Source: Flaccisagitta enflata (lineage: Eukaryota). From it: a DNA stretch of 64,000 bases. Location of the stretch: contig OZ231126.1 of assembly GCA_965153355.1 (NCBI GenBank), positions 1,302,001 through 1,366,000 of the forward strand. The letters are read 5' to 3'. Both the position numbers and the translations under genes were made by a program. Numbering within the stretch: the first letter of the stretch is position 1; the number at the start of each line of letters is the position of its first letter. Below the pieces are notes generated by a model. It was not told the DNA's origin, ran no database searches, and saw only the letters and a list, made by a program, of their open reading frames with translations. Of this stretch, positions 4,411 to 58,288 are shown in pieces.

Positions 4411-4411
4411 G

Positions 4412-4421
4412 NNNNNNNNNN
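4412..4421. other. Assembly gap (10 N)
   Basis: Run of N; sequence on either side is unrelated. Confidence 1.
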
Positions 4422-4422
4422 A

Positions 4423-4932
4423 TTCAACCAATCAAGGTCCAACCAGAACTTCAACCAACCTCACATGAATAACACCATTGCCTCTGTTGACCAAGAGCCA
4501 ATACAAGCACATCAAGAATATTTCCCAGTGGTAAATGAGCCACCTCACCAACATCAAAATCCTGCTGTCAACCTACAGCACCCAGACGGTCAACAAAATG
4601 GGCCTGGCGGCCAACAAAATGCACCTGGTGGTCAACAAAACATACCTGGTAGTGGAATCCCACCACCGTTATATGGAAATCTTCAGCGCCCTTTATGCGG
4701 CAATTGTCAGCGCATTGGACACAGATGGCAAGATTGCCAATGGGCGGCATTCTGCTCTAGATGTCTTGTGGAAGGACATCAGAACAGGTCTCACTATCAA
4801 AATCATAACTGGCCACAACAGAGACCTGACGCCAGGCAGTGGAACAACATCCAATTCCAATATGGCGGAACCAATCAGGACGACCAACAAGTGCCCATGA
4901 ACCACATCGATGGGCCCAATCATGATCAATGA
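4423..4932 (+). CDS. gag: Gag-like C-terminal region with two zinc knuckles (5' end lost in the gap)
   Basis: CGNCQRIGHRWQDC = CX2CX4HX4C; CSRCLVEGHQNRSH = CX2CX4HX4H; frame open from the gap; Q/N/P/G-rich. Confidence 0.8.
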   Translation, partial: FNQSRSNQNFNQPHMNNTIASVDQEPIQAHQEYFPVVNEPPHQHQNPAVNLQHPDGQQNGPGGQQNAPGGQQNIPGSGIPPPLYGNLQRPLCGNCQRIGHRWQDCQWAAFCSRCLVEGHQNRSHYQNHNWPQQRPDARQWNNIQFQYGGTNQDDQQVPMNHIDGPNHDQ

Positions 4933-16366: not shown

Positions 16367-17156
16367 CGCTCTCTCTTTCCATGTCATGTGAAGAGATCGG
16401 CAAGGATTTGTTTTCATTTGGCCATCGCAATTTCGATTTTCTTCTGAAAACTTTTCTTGTCAATTTTGTTCTTAAGCCTTGTTTTCATCCAATTCAAGTA
16501 GCTAGTTGCGGGAGAACCTCTCGTCCATGTGTCTGTGTTTGTCCCTCTCGGGAAGCCATCGGATATAGCAGGCTTTCCCTGCAAAGGCGGTTGCGGCTAA
16601 AGTGATAGGCTGACGGCACACAGGCTACTCAAATTTCCGACAAATGCTGTCATTTTACAGAATGTTCGATGAAGACGACATTTACCATTTGAGGACCTAT
16701 CCATGTTTGAATATCTTATGTTTCTTTTTCCCAAGCAAATATTCTTCTTTTCTTTTTCATTAGTGAATTAAATATAATTCGGGTTATTACGAGGCTGTAA
16801 TCCCTGTTTTTCTTTATTTGATAGAAAAGTATTACGGTACTGCATTATGCAAATTAGATTTTATAAGCTTATCGCGTACGAGTGTGTGGGGTTAGGAGAA
16901 GGTGATGGACCATAGGAGGCCATTCGGACACTTTTGGCAGAGGCGGCGACGCAAAAAACCGGAAATCGACCGATGTGACAGTTAGCCTGGTGGACGGATG
17001 CATGCGTACGAACCAATGGGCTGTAAGTGGCTTTTAGTATAGAGTCGCGTAGCAGCGGCTGAAAATGCCGATAAGCATCGTTTTCCTTTGTTTTAGAGCC
17101 GCCACGACAAATCTAACAGACAGCAAAGCATCTCCGTTTTCGTAGTCGAGGGTTTT

Positions 17157-17352
17157 TTGTTGCGGACATGCATCTCTACAAGAGGCTTTGTCCGTCCATC
17201 CGTCCGTCCATCGGTCATTGTTATCAAGTTGAAAACTGGGAAAACAAGAGTTTTAGATACTTTCTGTGTATGTTTGAATGTGGGGGCGGGTTGGAGTGTG
17301 GATACCCCTGCCCACCCATCCGCAGCGATATTGTGACCCCGCATCACTTGTT
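17157..17352 (+). mobile_element. Short DINE-1/Helentron-associated-like element (copy at ~59167-59360)
   Basis: T-rich flanks, (GTCC)n tract, CCCCTGCCCACCC block and CTTGTT end, as at 41438, 42107 and 53405. Confidence 0.5.
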
Positions 17353-17949
17353 GGAGCGTCAATCCACTTTCTCGAAATTCGAAAACAAAAACATTTCCCC
17401 TTCAAAACTGATTGAAAAAAAAAAAGACTTTAAATTGAAGTTTTTTTTCAATTGTTTCTCTATCCCGACACACTAGAAGAGTGGCCAAGCTAGTTGCTGT
17501 CCTGGCATCAGCAAATAATGCTGAAAAGACCTTAATTCTATCATTATTCTTACTGATTGAATTTGATAAAACGTTCTTCAAAGTTCGTAATCTTGAAATC
17601 TTCATTTTAACTCGGACTGAAATGCCTTTAAATGGATTTAAAGAAAATGTTTTTTACAGAAAATAGGGCTCTAAGCCAAGTTCTACCATATATACCCAAT
17701 AAGAAAGGGTAAAATTCATCTAGATATTGAAGCAGATTCCAACTGTTAAAAGCCGAGCGGTTACAGAGCAAGTGAGCGGAGCGAGCGAACGGAGCGAGCG
17801 GAGTGAGCGAGTGAACGGCGCGAGCGAACGGAGCGAGTGAACGGAGCGAGCGACCAAGTTTCGCGTATTGAAAAGCTCTCATCTGTTAACACTAGCGCAC
17901 CATAATTCCGTTGAAATTCAGGGGAATTTAAACTTGAATTTTATGAAAA

Positions 17950-22512
<4,563 letters not shown>

Positions 22513-23020: not shown

Positions 23021-23564
23021 AAGATCAACTCTCACGCCACGAACAACACTCAAACCGACAGCAACAACAACATCATGGCGGTCAACAACAACTCCGTGGC
23101 GGTTAACAGCAACAGCAACACCAACGGCAGCAACGTCCACAGCAGGAGGGGGAATCGACGACGTCAATGGCGCAAGAAATGCGTCAATTCATGGACGAAA
23201 TTAGGGACGCCCTCAGGACCAGGCGTCACACAATGTCAAGAAGAGCAAGGGGAAGTCATCAGGCGATACGCCTTACTTTTTTGGAGTAATTGAATTAGAA
23301 TTTGAATTTGAGCTATGGCTTCTTGATTGTTAAATGCAGAGCGAGTCCGAACCAAATGCAAGATTTTCTATTTTGCTTGCACTAGATTTCTACCACAGTA
23401 AATTTGACAAATTCCACGGTACCACTTGCGCAGGTCATTTCAACTTCCTCGAAACTGTTAAGGGCTTTGTGATTGTGTTCCACGATAGTGGAACACTTAA
23501 TATCCACAATTGTCTCCTTCTCCTTCTCCTTCTCCTTCTCCTTCTCCGGTATACACAATTCTCC

Positions 23565-25438
23565 ATGTCTGTCACACTTTTCCTATTTTCCTTTCACAAC
23601 CCAAAATTCTCCGATGTCTGTCACACAACCCAAGATTCTCCTATGTCTGTCACACAACCCATGATTCTCCGATGTCTGTCACACAACCCAGAGTTCACCA
23701 AATGTCTGTCACACCACCCAGTTTTTTCCGAATGTTCGTCACACAACCCAAAATTCTCCGATGTCTGTCACACAACCCAAGATACTCCGATGTCTGTCAC
23801 ACAACCCAAGATACTCCAATGTCTGTCACAAAACCTAAGATTCTCGAATGTCTGTCACACAACCCAAAATTCTCCGATGTCTGTCACACCACCCAGTTTT
23901 CTCCGAATATCCATCACACCACCCAGTATTCTCCGAATGTCCGTCACACCACCAATTTTTCTCCCATGTCTGTCATGCTAGCCAGATTTCTCCTATGTCT
24001 GTCACACAACCCAAAATCCTCCAATGTCTGTCACACAACTTAAGATTTTCGTATGTCTGTCACAAAACCTAAGATTCTCCAATGTCTGTCACACAACCCA
24101 AAATTCTCCAATGTCTGTCACACAACCCAAGATTCTCCGATGTCTGTCACAAAACATAAAATTCTCCAATGTCTGTCACACAACCCAAGATTCTCCAATG
24201 TCTGTCCCACAACCCATGATTCTCAGTTTTCTCCGATGTCTGTCACGCTAGCCAGATTTCTCCTATGTCTGTCACACAACCCATAATTTTCCAATGACTG
24301 TCACACAACCCAAGATTCTCCTATGTCTGTCAAAAAACCTAAGATTCCCCAATGTCTGTCACACAACCCAAGATTCTCCAATGTCTGTCACACAACCCAA
24401 GATTCTTCAATGTCTGTCACACAACCCAAAATTCTCCGATGTCTGTCACATAACCCAAAATTCTCCAATGTCTGCCACACAACCCAAAATTCTCCGATGT
24501 CTGTCATACAACCCCAGATTCTCCGATGTCTTTCACACAACCCAAGATTCTCCTATGTCTGTCACACAATGCAAAATTCTCTGATGTCTGTCACACAGCC
24601 CAAGATTCTCCGATGTCTGTCACATAACCCAAAATTCTCCAATGTCTGTCACACAACGCAAAATTTTTAGATGTCTGCTACACAGCCTAAGATTCTCCGA
24701 TGTCTGTCACACAACACAAAATTCTCCGATGTTTGTCACACAGCCCGCAATTTTCCGATGTCTGTCACATAACCCAAAATTCTCCGATGTCTGTCACACA
24801 ACCAAAAATTTTCGGATGTCTGTCACACAGCCCAAGATTCTCCAATGTCTGTCGCACAACCCAAGATTCGCCTATGTCTGTCACACAACCCAAAATTCTT
24901 GGATATCTGTCACACAACCCCAGATTCTCCGATGTCTGTCACACATCCCAAGATTCTCCAATGTCTGTCACACAACCCCAAATTCTCCAATGTTTGTCAC
25001 ACAACCCCAGATTCTCCGATGTCTGTCACACAACCCAAAATTCTCCGATATCTGTCACGCTACCCCAGATTCTTCAATGTCTGTCGCACAACCCAAGATT
25101 TGCCGATGTCTGTCACACAACCCAAAATTCTCGGATATCTGTCACACAACCTCAGATTCTCCGATGTCTGTCACACAACCCAAGATTCTTTAATGCCTGT
25201 CACACAACCCCAAATTCTCCAATGTTTGTCACACAACCCCAGATTCTCCGATGTCTGTCACACAACCCAAGAATCTCCAATGTTTGTCATACAACTCAAA
25301 ATTCTATGACACATACCAAAATTCTCTGATGTCTGTCACACAACCCCAAATTTTCCAATGTCTGTCACACAGCCCAAGATTCTCCGATGTCTGTCACACA
25401 ACCCAAAATTCTCTAATGTCTGTCACACAACCCCAGAC
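23565..25438 (+). repeat. 29-bp minisatellite, roughly 60-65 copies, consensus TGTCTGTCACACAACCCAARATTCTCCRA
   Basis: Head-to-tail units, no unique spacers. Confidence 0.95.
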
Positions 25439-26161: not shown

Positions 26162-27071
26162 TATAAATTACGCCCACGAGTTTCAACTGGCACTGTCTAT
26201 GAGCGTCTATCTGACTGACGACTTGTGGTGAAAGAAAGTTGGCCGATTGGAAAATAGGAAGGCGATCGTCTCGTTTATTCCATAAAAATTTCAACAACTG
26301 AAGAGAGGGGGAAAAATGAAAGGGAAAGTGGGCGTTAATTGTGATCAGCAAACGCAAAAGATAACATGAAATCGAGATAGGACACAATAAAGGACAGAAA
26401 CAGCACATGACAACATGTTCATCTTCTTCAGAGCCCATGCCACCTGATAATACCTGCCCCTGCCCCGGCCCATCCCATTAAATTTATCCATATCATCCCT
26501 ATAGCAAGCTGATCGGGCAAGCGATAAAAACCATACTCAAATCCGGCGATAAAAATGCAAAAGGGCAAAAGACAAAATAACAGACCGGAGGACAAAATAA
26601 AAACAACGATAATAAAAGCAAACACGCGTCTATAAAACTTACTTTTAGGCCCACTGTTGGTTTCAACCCACAGTCTGTCGAAGTCAAATTAACGTTAATT
26701 GTCCGTTCATTAGTTTATCTGCAATAAAAAGATGAGAGATTATTGAAATTAGTGAATTCCAAGGGCGCATTCAAACGATCACGAAAAATCAATCAATCAC
26801 TTTAAGAAGCAATGCCGCACATAAATAAAATCAATCAATCCAAAAATTGGATGATACGAAAGACGAGATACGTATGTTCGCCTACGTAATAAAAACAAAT
26901 GGCACAAAATACAAGGCGCAACCATATGGTTACCCATCTAGCGTTCAATATAAAAAATGGCGAGAAACAAAAGACGCGGCATTGAATAATCGAAGAAGAG
27001 AAAAAGCCAAAAGCACGCAAAAGAGACAAAAGCACACATACCTAAAGACGGACGGACATACATTTCTAACA
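26162..27071 (-). repeat. 3' LTR (last ~8 bp missing or garbled)
   Basis: Direct repeat of 38488-39392; starts TGTTAGAAAT on the minus strand. Confidence 0.9.
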
Positions 27072-27086
27072 TTCTGCCCCATTTTT
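27072..27086 (-). promoter_or_regulatory. Polypurine tract candidate
   Basis: AAAAATGGGGCAGAA immediately precedes the TG of the 3' LTR on the minus strand. Confidence 0.6.
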
Positions 27087-28134
27087 GGAATTTCACGAAT
27101 TTCAAAAATCCGACATCTAGTTTCCAGTCGGGGAAACCCTACTAAAAAACCGATACTACCTTCCTTAAAAAAAAAATTTACATAGACACAAACCCCCGCC
27201 CCTCCCCCCCCGTCCACCGCCTCTTACATCCCCACCCTAACTATCAACAGATCGACGACTGCACGAATGATGATTCCCGTCCGGAAAGGATCCACCACCA
27301 GCAATTTGCAACGATCAATGACGACGCGGATGGAGACGAGGCGGCGACGAGGAGGTTGAGGCGCCCGTTCTGAAAAAAGTTAAAGGGAAGGGGGGGGGAA
27401 AGGGGAACGGGCCTAGGAGCACTCCAAGCCTGGGATTTGACTTGAGAGTGGAAAATGATAAGTGGGGGCATACTACTAAAACATGTCATACGAAAGTATT
27501 CGTAATAATGACTAAAAAGACCATGTCTAAAACAAACACAACAAATTTACATGTTCCAAGGAACCAAACAAAACAAGACAAAATAAATAAGTTACTAACT
27601 ATATATAAAAACGAATCTGTAAGGTAAAAACAAATTAGTAAGTATCATGGAACGACCACATCACCTGCGCCTTCTCCATTACAGAGACGAGCGGATCATT
27701 CCGGAAGCTCCAACACCTCGTCAATCCGTGGGCGAAAGGCGATAAATGATGTCGTCAACGGCGACCGCATCGAAAGGCGCAGGTGGTGCAGCCGTCTGAG
27801 AATGTATCCTCCCCGAAGGGAAGAAAAGGAAAGAGAAAAAATGGGGGCAGATTGATTAGTAAAGTTCTTATCGTACACAGATTCAAATTTACAACAAAAA
27901 CTCAACCTCAACCCTTCCCAAACCATGAAACTTACGCGGGCGTTTTTCGCCAGGCCCCGGGGCGGACGTCATTCCCACGCCCCGGGTAGCGCCCCCGACT
28001 TGGCCGGCCTGTCCATCGATGGGATGAGGATGCGAAGGTGGAATACGATCCTCAGCGAATGGCGGCGCTCTCCACGCCATGTTGCAAATTGGTAGTTAAG
28101 TTGAACAGCAACTGGGCGTGGCACCAATCAGCGT

Positions 28135-30246
28135 TTAGCTGGCGGTCTGATTTTTCCAAGGCCTGGTTCGATTTTTCTTATTCCCAGGCTTGGGAGCGTC
28201 TTTTTGCGACGGGATCTGCTGACCGACTTTTTCTGCTGGAGAAGACGCAGGAGGTGGAGATGCTGCATCGCAATTCGGCGCCAGTCGAAATTTCGGACGT
28301 ACAGCGGACGCAGTTTTAAAGTCGACGGCCATAGCCGCCTTTGCGCGTTCCACCGCTTCCTCTTTCTTCTTAGCCTTCATCGCACAGGCCTGCTTCTCCT
28401 TTTCAAGCTGCTTCTCCAGTTCCACGACTCGCTTATTGCCTTTGACCACCTCATTGTCCGCAGCCATTGCTGCTCGACGAGCATCGTCTCTCTCCTTTTG
28501 GATATTGCGACGAATCCTCTCGTCTAAGACTTGACGAGCCGCTTCAACTCGTTGACGCGGCGGAAGCGACGCGAAGAAGTCTTTTGGAAGCCTTGATGCT
28601 AAATTCTTCACCACCCCCAATGGAGCATTTGAGGTCAGTAAAGAGGCTTCTCGTAGCAATGACTCGGCGATGTGGTGTCCATGCGCAGGATCAAAGGCTG
28701 GATCCGACGGGGGAGGCGGGTTCTGCACTTGCTGCAGACCTTGGGCAGACTCGGTTTGCTGACGAGGCGCTACACCAGCTTTAACAGATGCTGAAGCACC
28801 GCCAACTAGTTCGCTTCCTACCGCGGCTTTTGATGGCTGCGAGTGAAAGGAAGACGCTCCCGTCTGCTGACCAGAGACTTGAGGTTTAACAGCGGACGCC
28901 GAAGCACCGCAAGTAGAACCTCCCTTGGTTGCTGCTTTGTGCTTCTTCCCAGCTCTCTTGGTCTTCTTCCCCTTTGCTGCCGCTGCCCCAGGCGCCTGAT
29001 CCAGCTTCTGGGTTGCTGCCAACGTTGCCGTCGACGAACCGCTTGAAGCTTCTCCTTGGCCTTTGGGCGTTACTGCTGCAGGGGGCGCGCCTGGAGGCGC
29101 TTGAAGGGGGCCTTTGCTTTTGGAATTTGGCCCTTTTTGTTGACTCGGCACATTGCGCGTTTGTGGAGTCTTTCCCCGACGTGATCTCTTCGACTGTTGT
29201 GAGGGAGTGACGTCACGAGGACCCTGTTGCTGCTGATTTGGGGGATGAACCAATCCAGGGCGCGATTGACGACTTCCTGATGCTGTAGAGTGAATTGCCG
29301 CTGATGTAGCTGCGGCTGCGTCGAGCACGAATACCGCTGGTGGAGTTGCGGAAGCGTCGACGGAAGTTGCACCAGGAGGCTTCGGAGCCGCATTCTTCCT
29401 CTTCGTCGCCTGGACCATGCGACGAACCTCCTTATCATGCTCCCTCCTTCTCTTATTGCTTTGGATTTTGCGCTCCAGAGTCTCCGAGCCAAGCTCTGTT
29501 TGATTAGCCGATGAGCGCATGAGAGTTTGTTTGTTGCAGCATACCGAAAGTTTTTCAAACTCTTTGAAGAGGAGAGATACTCCGACGTCCGGGCTGATGA
29601 TACGATACCACCAACGCGCCTGCATCCGTTGGTGTTTCTCTTCCGGCGTCGCAGTGTCCACTTCCGGGTCAATGTCTTTCTCCACCGCCTCCCCATTCAC
29701 TAACACCTCCTCCTCTGTTTCCATCCCCTCCTCCTCCACTCTTGCTCCATCATTGACCGATCTCTCTCTCTCTTCGCCCCCGCTGCGTTGACGTGCAGCT
29801 GCAGACGCTTGATCACGAGACGCTGGGCGACCGAAATCAAGGCAAAATTGGCGAGGCGATGGGGGCAAATCCGATGATGATGACGCCGCCGCGGAAGTGG
29901 TGGATAAGTCCGTCGGCGGCCGATTGATCGAGATCCGCCTCGAACCTCCATCTCTGATGACCACCAATGGAGGAAGCGACGCGGGATCAACGGCGTTGGA
30001 TGGCTGTTGACGATTTACCAACGCATCATCTTGTTGACGCTTTTTATTCGCCATTTTTGCGTCTACGACGGAACGAAGGTCGCCATTGAAGGCTGCCAAC
30101 GCGACAGCCTCCTCCTCCGCCCCGAACGACGTCGTGGATGCAGATCCCTCTCGAGTCGAGCCGTCGTTGAAGAGTCGATGAAGATCCAAGGATCCGTACG
30201 ACGTCGACACGTCGGCTTCTGCCTCGAGACGCTGCTGACGGGACAT
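28135..30246 (-). CDS. Accessory ORF between integrase and 3' LTR, ~703 aa, low-complexity/coiled-coil, basic C-terminus, function unknown
   Basis: Uninterrupted ORF (open from 30528; first plausible ATG 30246, MSRQQRLEAE); no signal peptide or TM segment in this span; splice-acceptor-like TTCTTACCTTATCAG at ~30339. Confidence 0.75.
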   Translation of the reverse strand: MSRQQRLEAEADVSTSYGSLDLHRLFNDGSTREGSASTTSFGAEEEAVALAAFNGDLRSVVDAKMANKKRQQDDALVNRQQPSNAVDPASLPPLVVIRDGGSRRISINRPPTDLSTTSAAASSSSDLPPSPRQFCLDFGRPASRDQASAAARQRSGGEERERSVNDGARVEEEGMETEEEVLVNGEAVEKDIDPEVDTATPEEKHQRMQARWWYRIISPDVGVSLLFKEFEKLSVCCNKQTLMRSSANQTELGSETLERKIQSNKRRREHDKEVRRMVQATKRKNAAPKPPGATSVDASATPPAVFVLDAAAATSAAIHSTASGSRQSRPGLVHPPNQQQQGPRDVTPSQQSKRSRRGKTPQTRNVPSQQKGPNSKSKGPLQAPPGAPPAAVTPKGQGEASSGSSTATLAATQKLDQAPGAAAAKGKKTKRAGKKHKAATKGGSTCGASASAVKPQVSGQQTGASSFHSQPSKAAVGSELVGGASASVKAGVAPRQQTESAQGLQQVQNPPPPSDPAFDPAHGHHIAESLLREASLLTSNAPLGVVKNLASRLPKDFFASLPPRQRVEAARQVLDERIRRNIQKERDDARRAAMAADNEVVKGNKRVVELEKQLEKEKQACAMKAKKKEEAVERAKAAMAVDFKTASAVRPKFRLAPNCDAASPPPASSPAEKVGQQIPSQKDAPKPGNKKNRTRPWKNQTAS

Positions 30247-30596
30247 CTTGACTTCGACGAGCGACTTCAAGATGCGAACTGACTTCGTAGATGGAATGAC
30301 GTCGTCAGCGGAAGCTTTGAAATGTTCGTATTGAAGAACTGATAAGGTAAGAACGGATTTGGCACAATAATATGTACATATAGACAGAGCGAATGAATCA
30401 GTGTTTTGATGTGTAAGTGGAAATGGACAACATAATTGACAAGAGGAAAGATGAAAGCATGGATAATCAGAACCAAATATGAATAATAACAACTCTTTGT
30501 AAATATAACAAGTCAGAGTATCAATCACTCATATCTATAGTTACTAATGGACAGGCCCATGCGCCTTTTTCTCTCTCTCTCAAAACTTAGCGTTTT

Positions 30597-33500
30597 TTAT
30601 GAGTCCAATTCCAGCCGCACAAGCTTCGTGCGGTCTTTCGTCACGATCTTTCCATCTTGGCGCCGGATGTGAGCCCTCCGGACATGGGCTGACGAACCCT
30701 CGACGCCCATGACACGTCCTAAGCTCCAATTGTGACGAGGTAGCGTTTCGTCCATGACGATGACCATGTCATCAACCGCAAAGTCTCTCTCGGATCTCGA
30801 CCATTTGCTTCGCGCATGAAGAAGCGACAAATATTCGACCCTCCACGATTTCCAAAATGCATCCACACGCGATTGCGCACGCCTCCATTGAATCTTCGCG
30901 GAGTCGGCGTCAGAATTGACGCCTTGTTGCACCAGATCCAGAGGGGCATGGCCGGATGTTGATGGATTGAGGATATGATTCGGTGTAAGGGCCTCAGAGT
31001 CATTTGGATCATCGCTGAGCGCTGTTAGAGGACGGCGATTGAGAATTCCTTCAACTTCGACGACGGCAGTGTTGAAGGCGTCGACGTGGAGGATGGCGCC
31101 AGTTGAGATGGAGGCAAGATGGCGCTTAAAGAGAGCGACGATTCTCTCCCACACCCCTCCATAGTGGGGTGTTCTCGGCGTGATAAAATCCCACCGAAGG
31201 CCGCGCCGCTGCAATTCGGGAGTTGACGAGCGGTTCCAAGCTTCCATTTCCTTCTTGAGGATGTTGTTGGCGCCGACTAGATTCGTTCCACAATCTGATG
31301 TGAAACGGCGGATTCCTGGGCGCCTTGCTGCAAAGCGGATGATTGCGTTTACCATCGCATCGGCTGACATGTTGAAGAGCAATTCCACATGGACGGCGCG
31401 TGACACGAAACAGGTGAACACTGCGATCCACACCTTGTGATCAGCACGCCCGTTCATTTTTACCATGAAATGCCCCATGACGTCCAATCCAGTCTCTGCA
31501 AAGACAGGCGCCGGATTGACGCGATTTGATGGAAGATTGGCCATTTGCTGATTTGCGTTCTTTTTAAAGTTCTTCTGGCATCTAAAGCACGTGTTGACGA
31601 CGCTCTTGACGGCCTGAAGACCTTTTGTAATCCACACAAATTGGCGTAATTGGCACAATGTATGCTTTGCACCCGCGTGAAAATCATTATGATGATAATG
31701 GCGAATTAATGATTTCACATTCTCGTCTTTTGGCGGCAGGATGAAGGGAAATTTAGCGTCGTGAGAGATGTCGGCATTCTCCAATCGACTGCCGACGCGA
31801 AGGATGCCGTCGTCGTCGACGAAAGGGTTCAGCTTCCGCATCTCCTTGTTCTTTATGATAAAGTCACGACGGCTTTCTGGCTTGAAGACTTTTCCCAATT
31901 CCAATTGTTCGAAGACGTCAGAATAATGCTGCCGCTGCATTGACTTGACGAGCTGTTTGCGCGCCTCCTCCACGACGTCTTGCGTCACTTCCGGTTTGGG
32001 AAGGAGATCTTTTGTTGCTCGTGTCTTCGCCCTTGGATACGCTCTCCACCTTTTGACTGCGATGAGAACCATGCCGATAATCCGCAATTTCTGCATCCAT
32101 TTTCCCCGAGAAGCGGCTGCAAGAAGTATCGCGTCAGCCACTTGTTTCTTTTCACTCTCAGCCGCATACAGAGCGGCGACCTGTGCAGAAATAGGGCACG
32201 TCGCGATGTTCGTCTTTGGCCATTGATCTTCGGGAAGACGCAAAAATGCAGGGCCGTGATGGAATTGACGCCATTTTTCGGCTTCATGGGCCTGGATGCC
32301 TCTGCTACAGTGGTCCGCCGGGTTGTTTGACGAGTCAACCCAGCGCCACTGTTGAGGATCAGACCCACTATGGATCTTGGAGAGACGATTGGCGAAGAAT
32401 ACAGGCCTCGGTTTTGCCGGATTGTAAATCATCTTCAGTGCAGATTCAGAATCAGACCAAAATCTGACGACGAGATTGTCCAAGTTGATGGTCCTTCCGA
32501 CGAAGCGTTTGAGCTGCACTGCTTTTTCTGCGGATACAATCTCGACACGTGGAACGCTGTTGTGATGAGAAGCACGTTTTGGATTGAGTGGGATGACGTG
32601 AGATTTGGAGGCAAGGAATGAAATGTGAACATCTCCATCTCGGTTGACTTGACGTCGATATGCAACTGCTCCATATCCGCCTTTTGGAGCTGCATCGCAA
32701 AATAACTCGATTGTGACTTCCGCAATGTCGCTATTGTCGACGCCGCCATTCCACCAGCGTTCAATTCGATATTGTTGTAGAAGAGGCCAAGATGAAGTAT
32801 AGCGGAAGAAAGATTCCTCGACGCTCTCTTCCAAGGGCGAATCCCATCCCACTTCCTGTGGACGACAGAGTTGAAGATGTCGTCTACCGATGTATGCGCT
32901 TGGGCTCCAAAAACCCAATGGATCGTAAAGTTTCGCTTGCATAGAGACCAATTGACGAGGTGTTTTTGCTCTAAGAGTTTTGAATTCTTCGTCGCAGATG
33001 AAAATAAAGACGTCTTCCGCCGGAAGCCATGAGACGCCCAACACCTTCGTCGGCGCATCATCTTGCTTATCTGAAATGGGGATTGGCACATTTGGATCTC
33101 CATCCATCAATTGCCGCGCATTGCTTTTCCACTTCACAAGATCCATCCCGCCTTCAGCCATCGCCGCCACTGAATCCACCTTTAGTTGCAGTGCTTCGTC
33201 GACCGAATCCCCACCCCCACTTCCGTCGTCGACGTAAAAACCATAGCGAATAAGATCGTAGACGTTGTAGGGATATTTGGGCCGGATTACTTCAGCATGC
33301 TTTCTGACGGTGAAAGACGTGACGAATGAGCTGGATTGGCTGCCGAAGACATGTGATAAGAACAGATTCAAAATGGCTTCTCGTAGAGTACGGTCTTTGA
33401 ACCAAAAGAATCTGAACAGATCAGCGTCGTCAGGATGGACGCGGATCTGGTGGAAGAACGCCTTTATGTCACACATAAAGGCGATCTTCCACTGACGAAA

Positions 33501-34238
33501 ACGCATGAGGATGTCCATTAAGCTATTCATCAAATTTGGACCTCCGACGAGCAAATCATTGAGTGAGATCCCGTCGGTCGCCGCACGCGCATCGTGACAT
33601 ACGCGCGTTTTTCCGCGCAGTTCAACAATATGAAGCGGTAAGTACCAGCGCGGTTTCTCAATGCCGTCGTCGTCGTCGACGTTATCAATCTCAATCGCCA
33701 CTCCCGTCTCGTAAAACTTCTCGATTTCACGGAAGACTCTTTCTTTGAAGGCTGGATCACGCTTGAAGCGAAAACGTTGATTACCGAGTCGCTTCATCGC
33801 AGTTGGTCGTGATTTTACTCTTCTCAGAATCTCCATGATTTTCTCGTGATGAAATTTCCACGTGACGGGAGCAAAGTACTTTTTCACAATTGGGCAAAAA
33901 TATGTCTTTTCCTCTAACGTTTTGCACGCTCTGACATTTTCAAGGGAATCACCCATCTCCTCTTGCGAGACGATTGACGATGCAAAGTCATGGTAGAAGA
34001 TGCGGTCAATGTTGCTGTTGAGGACGCGATTGTCGAGGATGCGATCGATATTATCGTTGAGGACGCGGTCATCCGTCGCGATAGCGTTGATCGACGCAAT
34101 ATCTCGTCCTCTCTTGCCCGTTTTCCACATACAGTCCAACCGAACAGACATCTGAAGCAAGTCAAAGATCCTGAAGGCCCGGCGGATTTCTTGAGCGACG
34201 GCGGCATCCGCATGCGCCGCTCCGATGATCATCATCAC
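30597..34238 (-). CDS. pol: Bel/Pao pol: RT, RNase H, integrase
   Basis: WYLPLH, RVCHDA, SLNDLLVGGPNL, DIKAFFHQI, FYVDD (RT); KVLGVSW, LYDPLG, FCDA, FWSDS, NPADHCSRG (RNase H region); H..H/CFRC, GLDVMG, SDCGTN, GVWERIV, FWKSWRVEYL (integrase). Confidence 0.97.
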   Translation of the reverse strand: MMMIIGAAHADAAVAQEIRRAFRIFDLLQMSVRLDCMWKTGKRGRDIASINAIATDDRVLNDNIDRILDNRVLNSNIDRIFYHDFASSIVSQEEMGDSLENVRACKTLEEKTYFCPIVKKYFAPVTWKFHHEKIMEILRRVKSRPTAMKRLGNQRFRFKRDPAFKERVFREIEKFYETGVAIEIDNVDDDDGIEKPRWYLPLHIVELRGKTRVCHDARAATDGISLNDLLVGGPNLMNSLMDILMRFRQWKIAFMCDIKAFFHQIRVHPDDADLFRFFWFKDRTLREAILNLFLSHVFGSQSSSFVTSFTVRKHAEVIRPKYPYNVYDLIRYGFYVDDGSGGGDSVDEALQLKVDSVAAMAEGGMDLVKWKSNARQLMDGDPNVPIPISDKQDDAPTKVLGVSWLPAEDVFIFICDEEFKTLRAKTPRQLVSMQAKLYDPLGFWSPSAYIGRRHLQLCRPQEVGWDSPLEESVEESFFRYTSSWPLLQQYRIERWWNGGVDNSDIAEVTIELFCDAAPKGGYGAVAYRRQVNRDGDVHISFLASKSHVIPLNPKRASHHNSVPRVEIVSAEKAVQLKRFVGRTINLDNLVVRFWSDSESALKMIYNPAKPRPVFFANRLSKIHSGSDPQQWRWVDSSNNPADHCSRGIQAHEAEKWRQFHHGPAFLRLPEDQWPKTNIATCPISAQVAALYAAESEKKQVADAILLAAASRGKWMQKLRIIGMVLIAVKRWRAYPRAKTRATKDLLPKPEVTQDVVEEARKQLVKSMQRQHYSDVFEQLELGKVFKPESRRDFIIKNKEMRKLNPFVDDDGILRVGSRLENADISHDAKFPFILPPKDENVKSLIRHYHHNDFHAGAKHTLCQLRQFVWITKGLQAVKSVVNTCFRCQKNFKKNANQQMANLPSNRVNPAPVFAETGLDVMGHFMVKMNGRADHKVWIAVFTCFVSRAVHVELLFNMSADAMVNAIIRFAARRPGIRRFTSDCGTNLVGANNILKKEMEAWNRSSTPELQRRGLRWDFITPRTPHYGGVWERIVALFKRHLASISTGAILHVDAFNTAVVEVEGILNRRPLTALSDDPNDSEALTPNHILNPSTSGHAPLDLVQQGVNSDADSAKIQWRRAQSRVDAFWKSWRVEYLSLLHARSKWSRSERDFAVDDMVIVMDETLPRHNWSLGRVMGVEGSSAHVRRAHIRRQDGKIVTKDRTKLVRLELDS

Positions 34239-34644
34239 CGCCTTCAGCTTCTGGAAATTTTATGCCTTCGATGTGAGGTTGGTCAGATAGGTCGCGGAGA
34301 AAAGGAGGAATGTCGCGTTCACTCGTTAACAAATCACCCACCAATGCGTCGTTGATGTCGACGACATATTCTTCGTCGACCGATTGCATAGTGAATGATG
34401 CGATGAAACGATCCTCAACAACATGACTTCCCACAGTAATCACCGTCATTTGCACTGTTTTTGTTGGAATCAGAAGACTGCGAATGACATTGGTACTGAT
34501 CACGTCGCGATCAGCGCCTGAGTCGATCATAGCGTAAATCGTCCTCTGCGCACCCGAAGAATTGTTTATGATAGTCACTGGAACAATCGGACGGACAACG
34601 TCGTCGAATGAAGAGACGGACCGCGACGTTGCCGTCGCCGCCAG
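34239..34644 (-). CDS. Bel/Pao aspartic protease domain
   Basis: RPIVPVTI...IYAMIDSGADRDVIS; in frame with gag past the TGA at 34645-34647; joined to pol by an apparent 2-nt deletion near 34238. Confidence 0.9.
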
Positions 34645-35934
34645 TCATGCCGTGACGTTAGAAGAGATCACCTCCGTAGGATTGGCTGCCTCCGCCGTCG
34701 ACGGAGCTGTTGGTGCTGCTGCAGCCTCTGACTTTTTGAAGGGAGCCAGCGGTACTTTATTTCCCTGCTTATTTTCTCCTTTCTTCTCTTCCTTTTCTTC
34801 TTTCTTATAGGTGCGCCCGTGGAGAATCGTTGCGTGCCGCTTCTTGCAGGTTTGGCAAGTCGGTCTGTTCGCGCATCCTTTGGCGTTGTGTCCTGGCGCG
34901 AGACAGTGGAAGCAAAGACGACGAGACATGATCTTTTGGACTCTCGCGTCCACTTCCAACTCTAACAGCTGATGACATTCTTCTGTCTGATGCATTCCAC
35001 TGCAGACGTTGCAGCGGTCCGTCGACTGCGTCTTTTGCTTGCCATTGGTCAAAGCATCTTCATATGATGATGGCGCTTCTTTCTCTGTAGTTGCGACTGC
35101 TGCCACTGATGCTGTTTTGCAGCTTGCGCCTTTGTTGCGCTGAATCACCGCCCATGTCTCGATCATATTGACCAAGTTGTCGAATGAAAATAATTGTCCA
35201 TTTTGGGCTGCTTCATGTTGCTTTTCCCAGAATTTATCTGCAAGATGAGGGACCCTCTTGTTGAGGATCTCCTGCAGCAGCTCGTCACGATAGCATTGTT
35301 GCACTTCTCCACAGGTCCTCGCAATCTTCTTTGCCTTTTGCAACCTTGCAGACAAATTGAAATGCCTTGCATGGTCGGCCGACTGGATCTTCGCCTCCGC
35401 GACGATTTCGTTGAACAGCGCCGCAATGTTGCAGCGCCTCGCCATGAAGACGACGTCCATTTTTGCAAAGGCGTCGTCAATTTCTCCTCTTGCTGTCGCT
35501 TCAGTTGCATCAATCGTCGCAGTTTCTATGATCTCTTTTGCCGGACCAGCAAACCACTTAGGCAATTCCAATAAGATGTCCATTTGCGTCAAGCCCTCAT
35601 GCTTCTCAGCATCTTTGAACTTCCTCTTCCACATCATAAAGTCGGTGGATGAAAGCTCCTGCAGAGGCTTCTCAGGTCTTGCTCTCTCCAACGCTTTGAG
35701 GCCGACCTCCCTTGCTCGCATGAGATCATTGTACGTCGCTCTTTCCAAAAACCTGTCCAGAGCTGGATTGTTGGGCATCTGAACATGGACTTCCGGTTGA
35801 CGGGCTACTTGATGATGCTCCACTTGATGATACGCTGGGGGTTGTTGGATGAAGGCATATTGACCCCCGACTTTTACCGGAGATCTCTTTTTGGTGGTTT
35901 TTACACTCCACCCAACTTCCTCTTGCTGATTCAC
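34645..35934 (-). CDS. gag: Bel/Pao Gag core with three zinc knuckles
   Basis: CNVCSGMHQTEEC, CFHCLAPGHNAKGC, CQTCKKRHATILH, the characteristic Bel/Pao triple knuckle. Confidence 0.93.
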   Translation of the reverse strand: MNQQEEVGWSVKTTKKRSPVKVGGQYAFIQQPPAYHQVEHHQVARQPEVHVQMPNNPALDRFLERATYNDLMRAREVGLKALERARPEKPLQELSSTDFMMWKRKFKDAEKHEGLTQMDILLELPKWFAGPAKEIIETATIDATEATARGEIDDAFAKMDVVFMARRCNIAALFNEIVAEAKIQSADHARHFNLSARLQKAKKIARTCGEVQQCYRDELLQEILNKRVPHLADKFWEKQHEAAQNGQLFSFDNLVNMIETWAVIQRNKGASCKTASVAAVATTEKEAPSSYEDALTNGKQKTQSTDRCNVCSGMHQTEECHQLLELEVDARVQKIMSRRLCFHCLAPGHNAKGCANRPTCQTCKKRHATILHGRTYKKEEKEEKKGENKQGNKVPLAPFKKSEAAAAPTAPSTAEAANPTEVISSNVTA

Positions 35935-38400
35935 TTGTTGTTGACGATCATCTTGATGGAATCTGGGAGCATCAAAATCTTGGCGGACGTACTGTCGCTG
36001 TTGTTGTTCTTCTTTTCGTTGTCTCTCTTCTGCTCGCGCTGCGGCAAGGTCAAAGTCTCTGCTGAATCTGCATCTTCAAACTATCCACTTCTTGCTGCAA
36101 ACGTTGATTCTGCTGGATGACTTCCGCTTGAGGCGTCGTTAGAGGCGCTTGCGCTACTTTCGGCGCCTTTGGCTGCAATCCACTCGTTGTCTTCTTGGGA
36201 GCGACTTTTCTTCTTTCTTTATCTTGCAGCTGCTGGGCCAACCGCGTCAGCGGCCTCTTGCTTCTGCCTCTGCGCATTGCCTCCGGCTGCATCACCTCCG
36301 CTTCCGGCTGTGTTGAAGACCTTTTCCTCTTGATGGGAAGACCAGTCTCCCTTCTAGCAGAACCAATCTACTACATCACTTCAAAAGGGAGAATCGTTGC
36401 TGCTGGGGTTTGATGATGCTGGACCTGATGCTGTTGCTGCTGTTAGCCGCTGCTGCTGCCACTGTTGATGTTGAAGCCGTTGCTGCTGGTCAGGACGCTG
36501 TTGCTGTTCATTCTGCTGCTGCAGTTGACGCTGACGCTGTCCTTGCTGCTGCTGCTGCTCCAACTGTTGCTGCTGCTGCATCGGCTGCTTGACGGACGTT
36601 TCCACTGACTGCACATGACGTTGCTGTATGTTCGAATTGAACGATCCCGGATTGAAATTTCTGAAGATAGATCGACGGTCTTTTGGCGGATGCTGCGGCT
36701 GCTGCTGGTCCAGCTCAGACAGTTGTCTAAGCTTCACATCCCGCTGCTCTAAAGCTCCACCAATGCCGCCTGCTCAGGCTATTCCAGTGCTTTCGTTGCA
36801 TTTCCGCCGCATTGTTGAATACACCTGCCCTTCTATCTTCATCTCGTTGCTGCTGCTGGCGAAAGTTACACATTCTGTCATATAACACTTTGTCTTCTTG
36901 TGATGAGCTTCGCTGTTGGAATCCCAATGGCACCGCGATCGGCGCCTTTGGAGCTGTTGCTGCATCACCACCTTCACCTTCAGCCATCATGCGCAGCGTT
37001 GATCTGCAGGCGTTGCTGTCTCCTCTTCTTCTGTCTCCTCACTGACGTTCATGCTTTATGCTTTCGACAAGATGGTTGTTTGAAGCTGGAGGATCCACTA
37101 CCACCGCTGGGATTGCGGCGGAAGGTTGCTGTTGCTGCTGCTGTTGCTGTTGCGTATTTTCTCCTGCATCGTTTTGCCGCTGTTGTTGTTGTTCGTGCAG
37201 CTGCATTGCCGTTTGTCGCAGCTCTTGTTGTTGTTGCTGTTGCTGTTGTTGCTGCTGTTGATGGTATTGTTGTTGTTGTTGGCGCCGGCTGCAGGATCTT
37301 GTTGACAAAATTGTTGGAGTTGCAACTGCTGCTGCAACAGCTCTTGCCTTTGTGTTGACGCATCGTTTGCTGCTGCTCCTGTGGTCGGTGGAGGTTGCCG
37401 TTGCTGTTGGAGTTGCTGCTGCTCATCTGCAATTGTTACCTGCTGTTGCTCCTGTCGCTGTCACTGCTCCTCCTCCCGTTGTTGCTGCTGCATATATCGT
37501 CAATCAGCCGACAGCCTTGTCGCATTTCCTCCTCCAACTGCCTGCCCCATCTGTCTCCTCCAGCACTCCTGTTGGCAGACGTCGCCTCGCCCTCTCCTGC
37601 AGCGTCAATCCGTTGATGATCACGCGGCCTCTTGCAAGAGCGTCGGCCAATTCGAGATCCACAAACATATCGTCAACCTGCTCCCATCAGAGACACGCGC
37701 GCAGGATTCAATTTCCGAGACCAAATCTGATACCCATTGATTGACGGCATCTCCTCTTTGGATCGGCAGCAGATTTAAAAATTGGCCGCCAGTTGGAGAT
37801 TGCGCACCATGTCGCGGGACCGGAAGTGGTAGATACTCGGATCCGTCGGGGTTGGCGAAGACGTTCGCGCATCCTTGAGTTGGAGCGCCAGTAACATTGT
37901 CACGGGCGGCGTGAGTGTCAGTTGGGAGACTGTTCCATGAGAATTCGTTGGCGGGTCTTTTGAGATTCACAATGTCATTCTGCACTGCATTCACGATGTC
38001 GGCGTTGGAAGGAAAACCCTCTGTAGATAGTTTTCACGATCAAAGAAACGCATGGAGTCCCATTAGCGTCGGATTCGACGCAAAGGCGCCAGCGGTGAAG
38101 AGGGTCGCCGGGCATCGAGTCGAGCGCCATTTGCCTTGCATGCGATATAAAGTCGTAGACCATGTCCCGAAGGCCGTGTCGAGCGCCATCCGATTCACAG
38201 GCGGCGTAGTCGAAGTCGTTCGTTCCGCCGGTGCAAGTAGAAGCGGCGTCGAAAAGGCGCCGGCATCCTTCCGCATTTCGCGGTGATGTGGAATTCTCAT
38301 TAACGCGCGGCGCAAAGCGATTACGACCTCGGACACTTGATTCAGAACGAAGTGAGATACACACGAAGTTGACGTTGAAGCAGTCGAGACGGTGTCGTCG
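35935..38400 (-). pseudogene. Glutamine-rich Gag N-terminal extension, broken by frameshifts (likely sequence errors)
   Basis: Chain of overlapping Q-rich ORFs on the element's strand leading into gag; partly shared with 1-850. Confidence 0.6.
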
Positions 38401-38479
38401 TTACGCGCAATGGCTGCCACATTGTCCAATTTCGCTCGGAGTCGAAGATGAAGAAAAGAATCGCGAGTCGTTTTTAAAT

Positions 38480-39392
38480 TGTTGAAATATAAGTTACGCC
38501 CGCGAGGTTCAACTGGCACTGTCTATGAGCGTCTATCTGACGACGACTTGTGGTGAAGAAGTTGGCCGATTGGAAAATAGGAAGGCGATCGTCTCGTTTA
38601 TTTCATAAAAATTTCAGCAACTGAAGAGAGGGGGAAAAATGAAAGGAAAGTGGGCGTTAATTGTGATCAGCAAACGCAAAAGATAACATGAAATCGAGAT
38701 AGGACACAATAAAGGACAGAAACAGCACATGACAACATGTTCATCTTCTTCAGAGCCCATGCCACCTGATAATACCTGCCCCTGCCCCAGCCCATCCCAT
38801 TAAATTCATCCATATCATCCCTACTTAGTTGATCGGGCAAGCGATAAAAACCATACTCAAAAAATCCGGCGATAAAAATGCCAAAGGGCAAAAGACAAAA
38901 TAACAGACCGGAGGAAAAAAATAAAAACAACGATAATAAAAGCAAACACGCGTCTATAAAACTTACTTTTCATTTTCGTTGGTTTCAACCCACACAGTCT
39001 GTCAGTCAAATTAACGTTAATTGTCCGTTCATTGGTTTATCTGCAATAAAAGATGAGAGATTATTGAAATTAGTGAATTCCAAGGGCGCATTCAAACGAT
39101 CACGAAAATCAATCAATCACTTTAAGAAGCAATGCCGCACATAAATAAGATCAATCAATCCAAAAATTGGATGACACGAAAGACGAGATACGTATGTTCG
39201 CCTACGTAATAAAACAAATGGCACAAAATACAAGGCGCAACCATATGTTTACCCATCTAGCGTTCAATATAAAAAATGGCGAGAAACAAAAAGACGCCGG
39301 CATTGAATAATCAGAAAAGAGAAAAAGCCAAAAGCACGCAAAAGAGACAAAAGCACACATACCTAAAGACGGACGGACATACATTTCTAACA
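38480..39392 (-). repeat. 5' LTR (913 bp)
   Basis: Minus strand TGTTAGAAAT...ATTTCAACA inverted termini; AATAAA near the 3' end. Confidence 0.92.
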
Positions 39393-46792: not shown

Positions 46793-50222
<3,430 letters not shown>

Positions 50223-50601
50223 CAAGTGCAGAGAAAAGAGCCAATGGAGTTGTTGCAATCTGCTTCTGAACTGCAAGGATTGTCTGCACATTCATCCACG
50301 TCCGAACAATTGAATCCATTCCCTGTAAATCCTCCTTTGCATTCACATTCAAAACTACCAACTGTATTGTTGCATGTAGCATTTGGGTGACAGGTGTGCG
50401 ATTTTATTTCACATTCGTTGATGTCTGCAAAAGTGAGAACAGGCACTGATTGAAATGTAGGTACATTGATGAAAAATGACTAAAATGACAAAAAAAGCAA
50501 ATTGTTATGGACGGACGGACAAACCAATGGACAGAACGAGTCTTAGAGTAGCATGCACACAATAAAAAAAAAAGAATTCATGAACGCAGAAAGAATTGTA
50601 C

Positions 50602-50724: not shown

Positions 50725-50930
50725 CTGCAAAAGATGAGAACAGGCATTGATTGAAATGTAGGTCCATTGCGCAGCAGGTGTCTTTATAGGTTAGCATACA
50801 TGGGTGTGAGAGGGTGAGAAGGGCAGCGGACCCAAACCTATGCTAAAGCTCATGAGGAGTTATGGAAAATCATTTGGCTGAGATTTTGGCTGTGAGAATG
50901 AGACTTTGGCCTTAAGGGTGTGATTACAAT

Positions 50931-57703: not shown

Positions 57704-57741
<38 letters not shown>

Positions 57742-57743
57742 GC

Positions 57744-57793
<50 letters not shown>

Positions 57794-58133: not shown

Positions 58134-58187
<54 letters not shown>

Positions 58188-58196
58188 TGTGTCTGT

Positions 58197-58288
<92 letters not shown>

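What the first reader, a model, noticed from the sequence alone, without database searches (positions are those of the whole stretch)
28135..30340. Bel/Pao element carries a large non-envelope accessory gene in the env position
Seen: a ~700-aa intact ORF on the pol strand between integrase and the 3' LTR, preceded by an AT-rich spacer with a splice-acceptor-like site. It has a small ordered-looking block (RMQARWWYRIISPDVGVSLLFKEFEKLSVCC), a long A/S/Q/P/K disordered region, a helical block (HHIAESLLRE...LPKDFFASLPPRQR), a coiled coil and a basic tail; no signal peptide or TM. Established: some Bel/Pao elements (roo, Tas, Cer7) have env-like or extra ORFs here. Inference: an undescribed accessory factor, such as an anti-silencing, RNA-binding or localisation protein, made from a spliced subgenomic RNA.
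Basis: partly seen in the sequence, partly recalled or inferred. Interest (0 to 1): 0.75.

Follow-up and report, generated by a model that had tools for sequence, protein, structure and literature searches.

The report
Selected non-envelope retrotransposon accessory gene
A family of jumping genes in an arrow-worm-type genome carries, where infectious relatives keep their envelope gene, an unrelated third gene that natural selection preserves and that looks like a nuclear regulator of the element's own RNA or transcription, though its function and its messenger RNA have not been shown.

Summary
Confirmed. A 703-aa ORF (ATG 30246, stop 28135, minus strand) lies between pol and the 3' LTR of a Bel/Pao element. 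It is integral to the family: 342 of 390 pol-end motifs in G000 are followed by its start motif. It is under purifying selection (omega 0.42 and 0.40 in two sister families; 0.09-0.13 in a W/CC-basic block), while other frames are neutral. Three lineages share 37-41% identity while pol shares about 80%. No hydrophobic segment; no Pfam, PDB, Atlas or fold match: not env. Anatomy: acidic LDLxxLF motif, W/CC plus basic helix, conserved TP-NLS-like motif, helical module and predicted antiparallel coiled-coil dimer. An invariant LTR donor-like site (35 of 35) and a conserved acceptor-like CAG fit a spliced mRNA, but no junction was seen and a polyA library gave no reads. The host has chaetognath-type spliced-leader genes. 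Best reading: a nuclear trans-regulator, Rev/CERV-like RNA export (0.35) or Tas/VANC-like activation (0.3). A related family carries a different selected ORF at the same place. The scan noted post-integrase accessory genes once before, in Gypsy elements of another genome.

The parts
38480..39392 (-). 5' LTR (TG...CA, about 913 nt)
   Evidence: self-BLAST 38488-39392 vs 26162-27071, 94.7%; ends read
38961..38966 (-). splice-donor-like GTAAGT in the LTR
   Evidence: only site scoring 6 or more of 7 consensus positions between 5' LTR and spacer; unchanged in 35 of 35 LTR alignments, 21 family A and 14 family B
34645..38420 (-). gag region, Q-rich; in pieces in this copy, one ORF of about 1270-1330 codons in four other copies; ends in a TGA in frame with protease
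   Evidence: TGA followed by CTG or CTT in the window and in 17 loci of both families
30597..34644 (-). protease-RT-RNaseH-integrase (Bel/Pao pol)
   Evidence: PF05380 99.7 bits, PF18701 69.5 bits, PF17921 36.1 bits, all over cut-off; RVT_1, rve and Asp_protease weak
30247..30596 (-). 350-nt AT-rich spacer, conserved above neutral level; GAGA run and TGGGCCT near its 5' end
   Evidence: 258 of 350 nt identical between families A and B (47 of the first 50) against 47-51% at four-fold sites of pol
30339..30341 (-). splice-acceptor-like CAG, 92 nt before the ATG (also fits an Inr-like TCAGTT; Inr consensus recalled)
   Evidence: found in 49 of 49 family A and 14 of 15 family B copies; no ATG between it and the start in 62 of 63, against 4-11 ATGs upstream in the spacer
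28135..30246 (-). ORF3, 703 aa accessory protein
   Evidence: omega 0.417, 2dlnL 158 against omega=1; same start in environmental homologues
30169..30246 (-). aa 1-26: acidic N-terminus with conserved [LYF]DLxxL[FM] motif
   Evidence: present in lineages A, B, C; net charge aa 1-50 of -5 (A) and -9 (B)
29392..29682 (-). aa 189-285: acidic DPEVD, QARW.Y, FK.F..L..CC, SSA.Q and an Arg/Lys-rich helix; the most constrained block
   Evidence: omega 0.13 (A) and 0.09 (B) for aa 191-285; invariant residues in A, B, C; helix with pLDDT 78-92 over its basic part
29176..29262 (-). aa 329-357: RP..VHPP..Q..RD.TP followed by a basic cluster (NLS-like, with proline-directed phospho-site; reading recalled from SV40-type NLS)
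   Evidence: found in 5 of 5 lineage representatives
28300..28692 (-). aa 519-649: two short helices plus a long helix; predicted antiparallel coiled-coil homodimer
   Evidence: pLDDT 91-98 over most of it; omega 0.21 and 0.31; dimer score 0.56 vs best control 0.00
27072..28134 (-). 3' non-coding stretch ending in the polypurine tract
   Evidence: no stop-free stretch over 101 codons on either strand; about 70% identical to family B
26162..27071 (-). 3' LTR; its last few bases differ from the 5' LTR end, so no target-site duplication could be read
   Evidence: 22 mismatches, 27 gap columns in 921

Best explanation
ORF3 is a genuine third gene of a Bel/Pao clade of an arrow-worm-type host, not an envelope gene. 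SHOWN: coding, selected, fixed in position, shared by at least three lineages. INFERRED: it is translated from a subgenomic mRNA whose 5' end joins the acceptor at 30339, most likely by splicing from the LTR donor at 38966 (gag-pol removed as an 8.6-kb intron), possibly also by the host's spliced leader. INFERRED: the protein is nuclear (conserved basic clusters), dimerises through its coiled coil, and binds the element's own nucleic acid through the W/CC-basic helix. Most likely job: like Cer1 CERV or Rev, it lets the unspliced genomic RNA, which holds a strong donor and acceptor and lives in a trans-splicing host, escape splicing and leave the nucleus, switching the element from early (ORF3) to late (gag-pol) expression. 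Confidence that it is a real selected non-env gene is about 0.97; that it is a nuclear trans-regulator about 0.7; the figure given is for the export/splicing-control role.
For: Presence: 342 of 390 pol-end motifs are followed by the ORF3 start motif at 322-352 nt. Selection: variants among 29 copies against the window give N/S-normalised ratios 0.15-0.23 in frame and 0.74-4.6 in the two other frames, with 0 against 4 and 9 stop-creating variants; codon model omega 0.417 (28 open copies, 2dlnL 158) and 0.400 (7 copies, 2dlnL 65), 0.13/0.09 in aa 191-285, 0.74/0.75 in the linker. Depth: 37-41% identity among lineages A, B, C against 78-82% for pol. Splice signals; a related family has T-rich TTATCAG directly before the ATG of its own post-pol ORF in 5 of 5 copies. 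Host: chaetognath leader motif 154 times against 7 for the control, in tandem arrays with a GT donor. Dimer: 0.56, best of 3 controls 0.00, runs agree in at least 78% of contacts, pLDDT at least 68; the mark was reached by 21 of 30 microbial homodimers and 0 of 23 monomers, by 17 of 29 eukaryote homodimers (animals 7 of 16) and 0 of 30 monomers. Precedent: CERV is made from a spliced mRNA, is phosphorylated at a proline-directed site and is needed for export of unspliced Cer1 RNA (PMC10309623, abstract and section 15); that mRNA occurs with and without SL1 (PMC3315495, passages).
Against: No expression seen: of 12.16 million records of polyA run X15 (about 6% of the run) none lay on ORF3, pol or the LTR; 46 lay in part on CAG repeats; that X15 is the host was not checked with a host gene. 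Contigs of RNA-labelled runs X1, X2 cover spacer and would-be intron evenly, like DNA, and show no 38966-30338 joint. No sequence or fold likeness to CERV or Rev was found. No clear leucine-rich export signal was identified. Family B's acceptor has a weak pyrimidine tract. One 6-of-7 donor in 9 kb is not above chance by itself, and it sits in a longer conserved block that could be a promoter element. Most sampled Bel/Pao families of the same genome (55 of 60 loci, 7 of 8 clusters) thrive without any such gene. A coiled-coil pass may be from memory of solved coiled coils.
Confidence: 0.35

Rival explanations
1. Transcriptional trans-activator or anti-silencing factor (works like foamy-virus Tas or Arabidopsis VANC; both recalled): the basic helix binds DNA motifs in the LTR and spacer, and the acidic LDLxxLF end recruits co-activators or counters methylation.
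For: Acidic amphipathic N-terminal motif kept in A, B, C; TGGGCCT is conserved both in the LTR next to the donor-like site and in the spacer; the unrelated post-pol ORF of family D has an acidic N-half, Arg-rich helix and coiled coil; chaetognath DNA methylation targets LTR elements most strongly (PMC12460157, passages); pol of families A and B keeps CpG o/e 1.05-1.20 against 0.39-0.44 in two flanking stretches.
Against: Two Bel/Pao groups without ORF3 have equally high CpG o/e (1.13-1.23) and equally low CpG transition excess (0.86, 1.26 against 1.37, 1.38). No DNA-binding fold was matched. A shared 7-mer is weak, chosen after the fact. No reads on the element in X15.
Confidence: 0.3
2. Cytoplasmic RNP or particle accessory: a disordered, basic, dimeric scaffold that condenses genomic RNA with Gag, carries particles to the germ plasm or nucleus, or sequesters small-RNA factors.
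For: 525 of 703 residues have pLDDT under 50; pI 9.9, basic middle and tail; predicted dimer; nearest Atlas look-alikes with a Pfam family were plant Transposase_28 accessory proteins, scores 0.77 (lead only).
Against: A conserved TP plus basic cluster in 5 of 5 lineages fits nuclear import better; no GW/WG repeats; the linker is nearly neutral (omega 0.74).
Confidence: 0.22
3. The mRNA is made from an internal promoter in the spacer or by spliced-leader trans-splicing rather than by cis-splicing (a rival for the expression step only).
For: Spacer conserved above neutral, with GAGA run and TATA-like stretch; TCAGTT fits a recalled Inr consensus; host has leader genes and nearly half of genes are trans-spliced in another chaetognath (PMC12460157).
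Against: Invariant LTR donor-like site; family D has TCAG directly before ATG, which fits an acceptor and not a start site; no leader-ORF3 retrocopy in G000 (0 matches; covers two of three candidate AGs and one leader type).
Confidence: 0.4
4. A diverged env or a captured host gene or nested element with no role for the element.
For: It occupies the env position; 21 of 49 family A and 8 of 15 family B copies examined are broken.
Against: No hydrophobic segment; six Cys only, no match to viral folds at E<=0.001; breaks are mostly private (8 of 77 distinct indels shared) and no more frequent than in pol (1.24 against 2.54 frameshifts per kb, biased by selecting on ORF3); omega far below 1; no terminal repeats around it (one search found none in the spacer or 3' stretch beyond short chance pairs).
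Confidence: 0.04

Closest known systems
Env-bearing Bel/Pao elements (Tas, Cer7; PMC554778 passages; PMC3118150 passages; roo recalled)
   Same: Same superfamily, third ORF between integrase and 3' LTR on the pol strand.
   Different: No signal-like or TM hydrophobic segment, mostly disordered and basic, no similarity found to viral glycoproteins.
CERV of C. elegans Cer1 (PMC10309623 abstract and section 15; PMC3315495 passages)
   Same: Novel accessory protein of an LTR element in a trans-splicing host; spliced mRNA; coiled-coil multimerisation, Cys-containing block, proline-directed phospho-site, nuclear.
   Different: Cer1 is Ty3/gypsy; CERV shares exons with gag and has three folded domains; no sequence or fold likeness was found; function here untested.
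Plant additional ORFs between pol and 3' LTR (Grande gene23, Retand Transposase_28; PMC7264820, parts 1-2 of 3 read)
   Same: Conserved family-wide ORF of unknown origin in the long 3' internal region; nuclear regulatory role proposed; Atlas look-alike to PF04195 at 0.77.
   Different: Those non-env ORFs are mostly antisense with their own promoter and in plant Ty3/gypsy; no PF04195 match by HMM here.
Complex-retrovirus regulators Rev and foamy-virus Tas; Arabidopsis VANC (recalled)
   Same: Basic nucleic-acid-binding helix, oligomerisation, acidic motif; gene placed 3' of pol.
   Different: No homology; analogy of anatomy only.
13,941-bp Bel/Pao element with 914-bp LTRs in Spadella cephaloptera BAC 46L09 (PMC2997562, passages and table)
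   Same: Chaetognath Bel/Pao of nearly the same size (13.2 kb, about 913-nt LTR here).
   Different: Annotated there only as GAG-AP-RT-RH-INT; its sequence could not be fetched, so kinship and an ORF3 are untested.

Membership tests
Bel/Pao (Belpaoviridae) LTR retrotransposon | Pao-type pol with PR-RT-RH-IN order, Peptidase_A17 and DUF5641 | tested here: met
Bel/Pao (Belpaoviridae) LTR retrotransposon | Two direct LTRs, TG start, PPT before 3' LTR | tested here: met
Bel/Pao (Belpaoviridae) LTR retrotransposon | Gag Cys-His zinc-knuckle region | tested here: met
   three Cys/His clusters at the end of ORF 34645-36075, read by eye; no Pfam hit
Bel/Pao (Belpaoviridae) LTR retrotransposon | tRNA primer-binding site after the 5' LTR | tested here: inconclusive
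   no TGG start after the LTR end; the tRNA comparison returned no tRNAs and was not repeated
Env (fusogen) of LTR elements | Signal peptide and C-terminal transmembrane helix | tested here: not met
   highest KD19 1.32 in an Ala-rich linker (A), 0.75 (B); termini charged; hydropathy only
Env (fusogen) of LTR elements | Homology to a viral glycoprotein | tested here: inconclusive
   no match at E<=0.001 in BFVD or PDB, only generic coiled coils at Z<=6.4; no Pfam or PDB sequence match
Env (fusogen) of LTR elements | Spliced subgenomic mRNA from a 5' donor | tested here: inconclusive
   sites conserved; no junction
CERV / Rev-like export factor | Homology to CERV or Rev | tested here: inconclusive
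   no hit in Pfam, PDB sequences or folds; CERV itself was not aligned
CERV / Rev-like export factor | Arg-rich helix and oligomerisation surface | tested here: met
   conserved K265, R268, K272, R275, R276; predicted dimer; prediction only
CERV / Rev-like export factor | Needed for nuclear export of unspliced RNA | not testable with these tools
   needs cell assays
VANC / Tas-like anti-silencing or trans-activating factor | Family shows reduced methylation footprint relative to families without the gene | tested here: inconclusive
   CpG retention high, but equally high in two ORF3-less groups
VANC / Tas-like anti-silencing or trans-activating factor | Sequence-specific DNA binding and activation | not testable with these tools
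   needs reporter and binding assays
Plant Transposase_28 (PF04195) accessory ORFs | PF04195 domain | tested here: not met
   no Pfam hit in 16 aligned members or full-length proteins; Atlas score 0.77 only

The most novel reading that the evidence does not exclude
Arrow-worm Bel/Pao elements include a 'complex' clade that, like complex retroviruses, uses a spliced or trans-spliced non-env gene as a nuclear trans-regulator of its own RNA export or transcription, with two unrelated-looking proteins (703 aa and about 220 aa) of the same acidic / Arg-rich / coiled-coil plan at the same site, as an answer to a host with pervasive trans-splicing and transposon-targeted methylation.
Probability: 0.35. 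Interest if true: 0.82.

Novelty: new variant of a known kind. Interest (0 to 1): 0.62.

Why it matters
The papers seen describe extra Bel/Pao ORFs only as env-like; ten searches of the library turned up no non-env accessory gene in Bel/Pao, though subscription papers are missing. Accessory regulators are well studied in retroviruses but only a handful are known in animal LTR retrotransposons. This is a new protein family with clear selection, mapped constrained blocks and predicted splice sites, so the question of how an LTR element keeps its genomic RNA unspliced or unsilenced in a trans-splicing, transposon-methylating animal becomes directly testable.

Tried and rejected
Remote homology: Pfam 0 families for ORF3 and no family shared by more than 1 of 16 members; PDB sequences 0 at E<=1; Foldseek PDB and BFVD 0 at E<=0.001, VIA-align best Z 6.4, all long helices, the N-terminal block barely tested; Atlas best 0.78 whole, 0.86 part; 20 hits among 1.84 billion representatives, all ORF3-like on reading. 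JGI metagenome and IMG/VR scans: 0 of 213 and 0 of 3 candidate stretches confirmed. ORF3 profile against 60 of the 150 listed DUF5641 loci: no hit at E<=1 (the second profile gave output identical to the first and is disregarded). An in-frame N-terminal extension from an ATG just before the donor: specific to this copy's 5' LTR, absent from 35 other LTR alignments, rejected. Coding in the 92 nt before the ATG: rejected. Spacer as a relic LTR of another family: no alignment better than E 0.35. Leader genes in the 5S repeat: none; found elsewhere. Leader-ORF3 retrocopy: 0. PPT-complementary 17-nt repeat in the 3' stretch: not seen among the five longest pairs in family B, treated as chance. The omega=1 nulls used kappa 2 and overstated the test; redone. 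The simple N/S counts ignore transition bias and run lower than the codon model. The bacterial promoter scan does not apply to this host. The FASTA supplements of PMC2566580 with the full leader genes could not be read; the leader end and donor come from G000 itself.
Full report
Observation. On the minus strand, 28135-30528 is open for 797 codons; the first ATG is at 30246 and gives 703 aa. Shuffles reach at most 260 codons. Upstream lies a Bel/Pao pol (PF05380, PF18701, PF17921 over cut-off), and LTRs of 94.7% identity flank the element at 38488-39392 and 26162-27071. The element is 13.2 kb. The ORF starts 350 nt after the pol stop and ends about 1060 nt before the 3' LTR.

It belongs to the family. 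The DNA search in G000 returned 40 of 40 scored matches at 95-100%. Counting from the pol side, free of bias toward the ORF, 342 of 390 exact pol-end motifs are followed 322-352 nt later by the ORF's start motif. A protein query gave 63 matches, 57 without an internal stop (best-scoring, so biased). Of 64 copies examined in detail 35 have a whole frame (28 of 49 in family A, 7 of 15 in B). Breaks are mostly private (8 of 77 distinct indels shared) and run at 1.24 frameshifts per kb against 2.54 in the adjacent pol and 11.3 in the 3' non-coding stretch (loci were picked by likeness to the ORF). Environmental assemblies hold six clusters of 195 members in all at 86-98% identity, the full-length ones starting at the same Met.

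It is selected. Among 29 copies compared with the window, non-synonymous variants are depleted in every frequency class (ratio 0.15-0.23), while the other two frames give 0.74-4.6 and gain 4 and 9 stops against 0. A codon model gives omega 0.417 for family A (2dlnL 158 against omega=1 with the best of six kappa values) and 0.400 for B (65); by block, 0.41/0.48 for aa 1-190, 0.13/0.09 for aa 191-285, 0.74/0.75 for the linker, 0.21/0.31 for aa 511-650. Pol gives 0.23 and 0.15. Diverged hits among 1.84 billion representatives led to a sister family B in G000 with the ORF at the same place and a third lineage C (one partial copy, L084, without pol nearby; a full-length environmental protein P0085). 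A, B and C share 37-41% identity, 142 positions identical in all three, while pol of A and B shares 78-82% and four-fold sites 47-51%. The gene is old relative to silent-site turnover and evolves faster than pol.

It is not env and has no known relative. The highest hydropathy window is 1.32. Pfam, PDB sequences, Foldseek on PDB and BFVD, VIA-align and the Atlas gave nothing beyond generic coiled coils and sub-0.9 look-alikes. AlphaFold with 7 close sequences left 525 of 703 residues under pLDDT 50; with 16 diverged ones, aa 523-649 reached 91-98 over most of their length as two short helices and a long helix, and the basic helix 78-92. Two copies of aa 514-652 were predicted to pair as an antiparallel coiled coil, score 0.56 against 0.00 for the best of three controls, with the caveats. 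Conserved features are an acidic N-terminal [LYF]DLxxL[FM], the W/CC block with an Arg-rich helix, a VHPP...TP motif followed by a basic cluster in 5 of 5 lineage representatives, the helical module, and a basic tail.

Expression route. The spacer is 258 of 350 nt identical between A and B. The CAG at 30339-30341 is kept in 63 of 64 copies, and 62 of 63 have no ATG between it and the start, against 4-11 upstream; with two independent lineages this alone is weak. One donor-like site, AAA|GTAAGT at 38966 in the LTR, is the best between LTR and spacer and is unchanged in 35 of 35 LTR alignments although A and B LTRs are about 70% alike. But RNA gave no support: no read of 12.16 million from polyA run X15 lay on the ORF, pol or LTR, and contigs from X1, X2 and X9 cover the element evenly without the joint. 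The element may be silent in that sample; host identity of X15 was not controlled.

Host context. A leader motif from a chaetognath primer table (PMC2566580 supplement) occurs 154 times against 7 for the control, in tandem arrays with a GT donor and as heads of dispersed retrocopies: the host has chaetognath-type spliced-leader genes. In another chaetognath nearly half of genes are trans-spliced and DNA methylation targets LTR elements most strongly (PMC12460157, passages). No leader-ORF3 retrocopy was found. CpG retention in A and B is high but matched by two groups without the gene, so an anti-methylation role gets no specific support.

Other Bel/Pao families. Sixty of 150 listed DUF5641 loci fall into 8 clusters; none matches the ORF3 profile. 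One cluster of 5 loci (family D) has a different post-pol ORF of 218-225 aa, whole in 3 of 5, preceded directly by a T-rich TTATCAG in 5 of 5, with omega 0.14 (2dlnL 98), acidic N-half, Arg-rich helix and coiled coil, and no similarity to ORF3. It groups with A and B in a pol tree at weak support (80/75, long branches; 18 rows). Shared ancestry or convergence cannot be told.

Mechanism. Shown: a selected, family-wide, non-env gene. Inferred: subgenomic mRNA ending its first exon or leader at the conserved CAG (cis-splicing about 0.55, trans-splicing or internal promoter about 0.4); a nuclear, dimeric, nucleic-acid-binding protein (about 0.7). I put control of splicing and export of genomic RNA first (0.35), by analogy with Cer1 CERV, which is made from a spliced, partly SL1-bearing mRNA and is needed for export in another trans-splicing host (PMC10309623, abstract and section 15; PMC3315495, passages); trans-activation or anti-silencing second (0.3); a cytoplasmic RNP or particle role third (0.22).

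Comparison and novelty. Extra ORFs after pol are known in plant LTR elements (PMC7264820, parts 1-2 of 3) and as env in a few Bel/Pao elements (PMC3118150, PMC554778, passages). A 13.9-kb Spadella Bel/Pao element with 914-bp LTRs was annotated without a third ORF (PMC2997562, passages; PMC2678813, passages, mentions only a Bel/Pao RT transcript). Ten library searches found no non-env Bel/Pao accessory gene. The scan's own notes held nothing on this genome or sequence and one unrelated Gypsy case. Verdict: new variant of a known kind, a new protein family with unknown function; interest 0.62.

Noticed in passing
L034, L138, L139, L140, L142 (G000 C5:31.09 M, C1:54.06 M, C5:35.91 M, C4:29.50 M, C9:64.85 M): Another Bel/Pao family with its own selected post-pol ORF (218-225 aa, omega 0.14; acidic, Arg-rich, coiled coil) right behind an acceptor-like TTATCAG; no similarity to ORF3.
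   Followed up: partly
window 34645-34647 (-): gag and protease are in one frame, separated by a single TGA followed by CTG or CTT, kept in the window and 17 loci of both families: likely stop-codon readthrough, rare among Bel/Pao (recalled).
   Followed up: partly
L099 (G000:C4:75903000-75908600): A 5.3-kb tandem unit holding one 5S rRNA gene and 33 whole tRNA genes on both strands, repeated many times on C4.
   Followed up: no
L120-L123 and L108-L137: Tandem arrays of spliced-leader genes on four contigs, apart from the 5S repeat, and a dozen dispersed leader-headed retrocopies; L114, L115, L118 share sequence after the leader.
   Followed up: partly
window 38440-38479 (-): No TGG-type primer-binding site follows the 5' LTR in families A or B; priming mode unclear.
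   Followed up: partly
L080; protein P0063: Internally deleted derivatives that join the start or middle of pol to the inside of ORF3; they look like microhomology deletions, not splices.
   Followed up: partly
window 1-4388 (+) and 4345-8361 (+): A decayed 88% copy of the family's gag-pol part, abutting a different element with a CCHC knuckle and an 1142-codon ORF with internal repeats and a protease-like motif.
   Followed up: no
window 16369-21249 and 55821-60142: An inverted duplication of about 5 kb, 89-98% alike, carrying an acidic 450-480-codon ORF.
   Followed up: no
window 23500-25430: Array of a 29-nt satellite, over 50 copies.
   Followed up: no
window 49859-50479 (-), 50916-52915 (+), 61922-62452 (+): EGF-like exon, a LINE-like endonuclease/RT region, and an exon resembling a TRP-channel pore region, named by eye.
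   Followed up: no
window 38971-38977 region of the 5' LTR: This copy's 5' LTR has lost the TGGGCCT block that its 3' LTR and 35 other LTR alignments keep just before the donor-like site; the same 7-mer is conserved in the spacer.
   Followed up: partly
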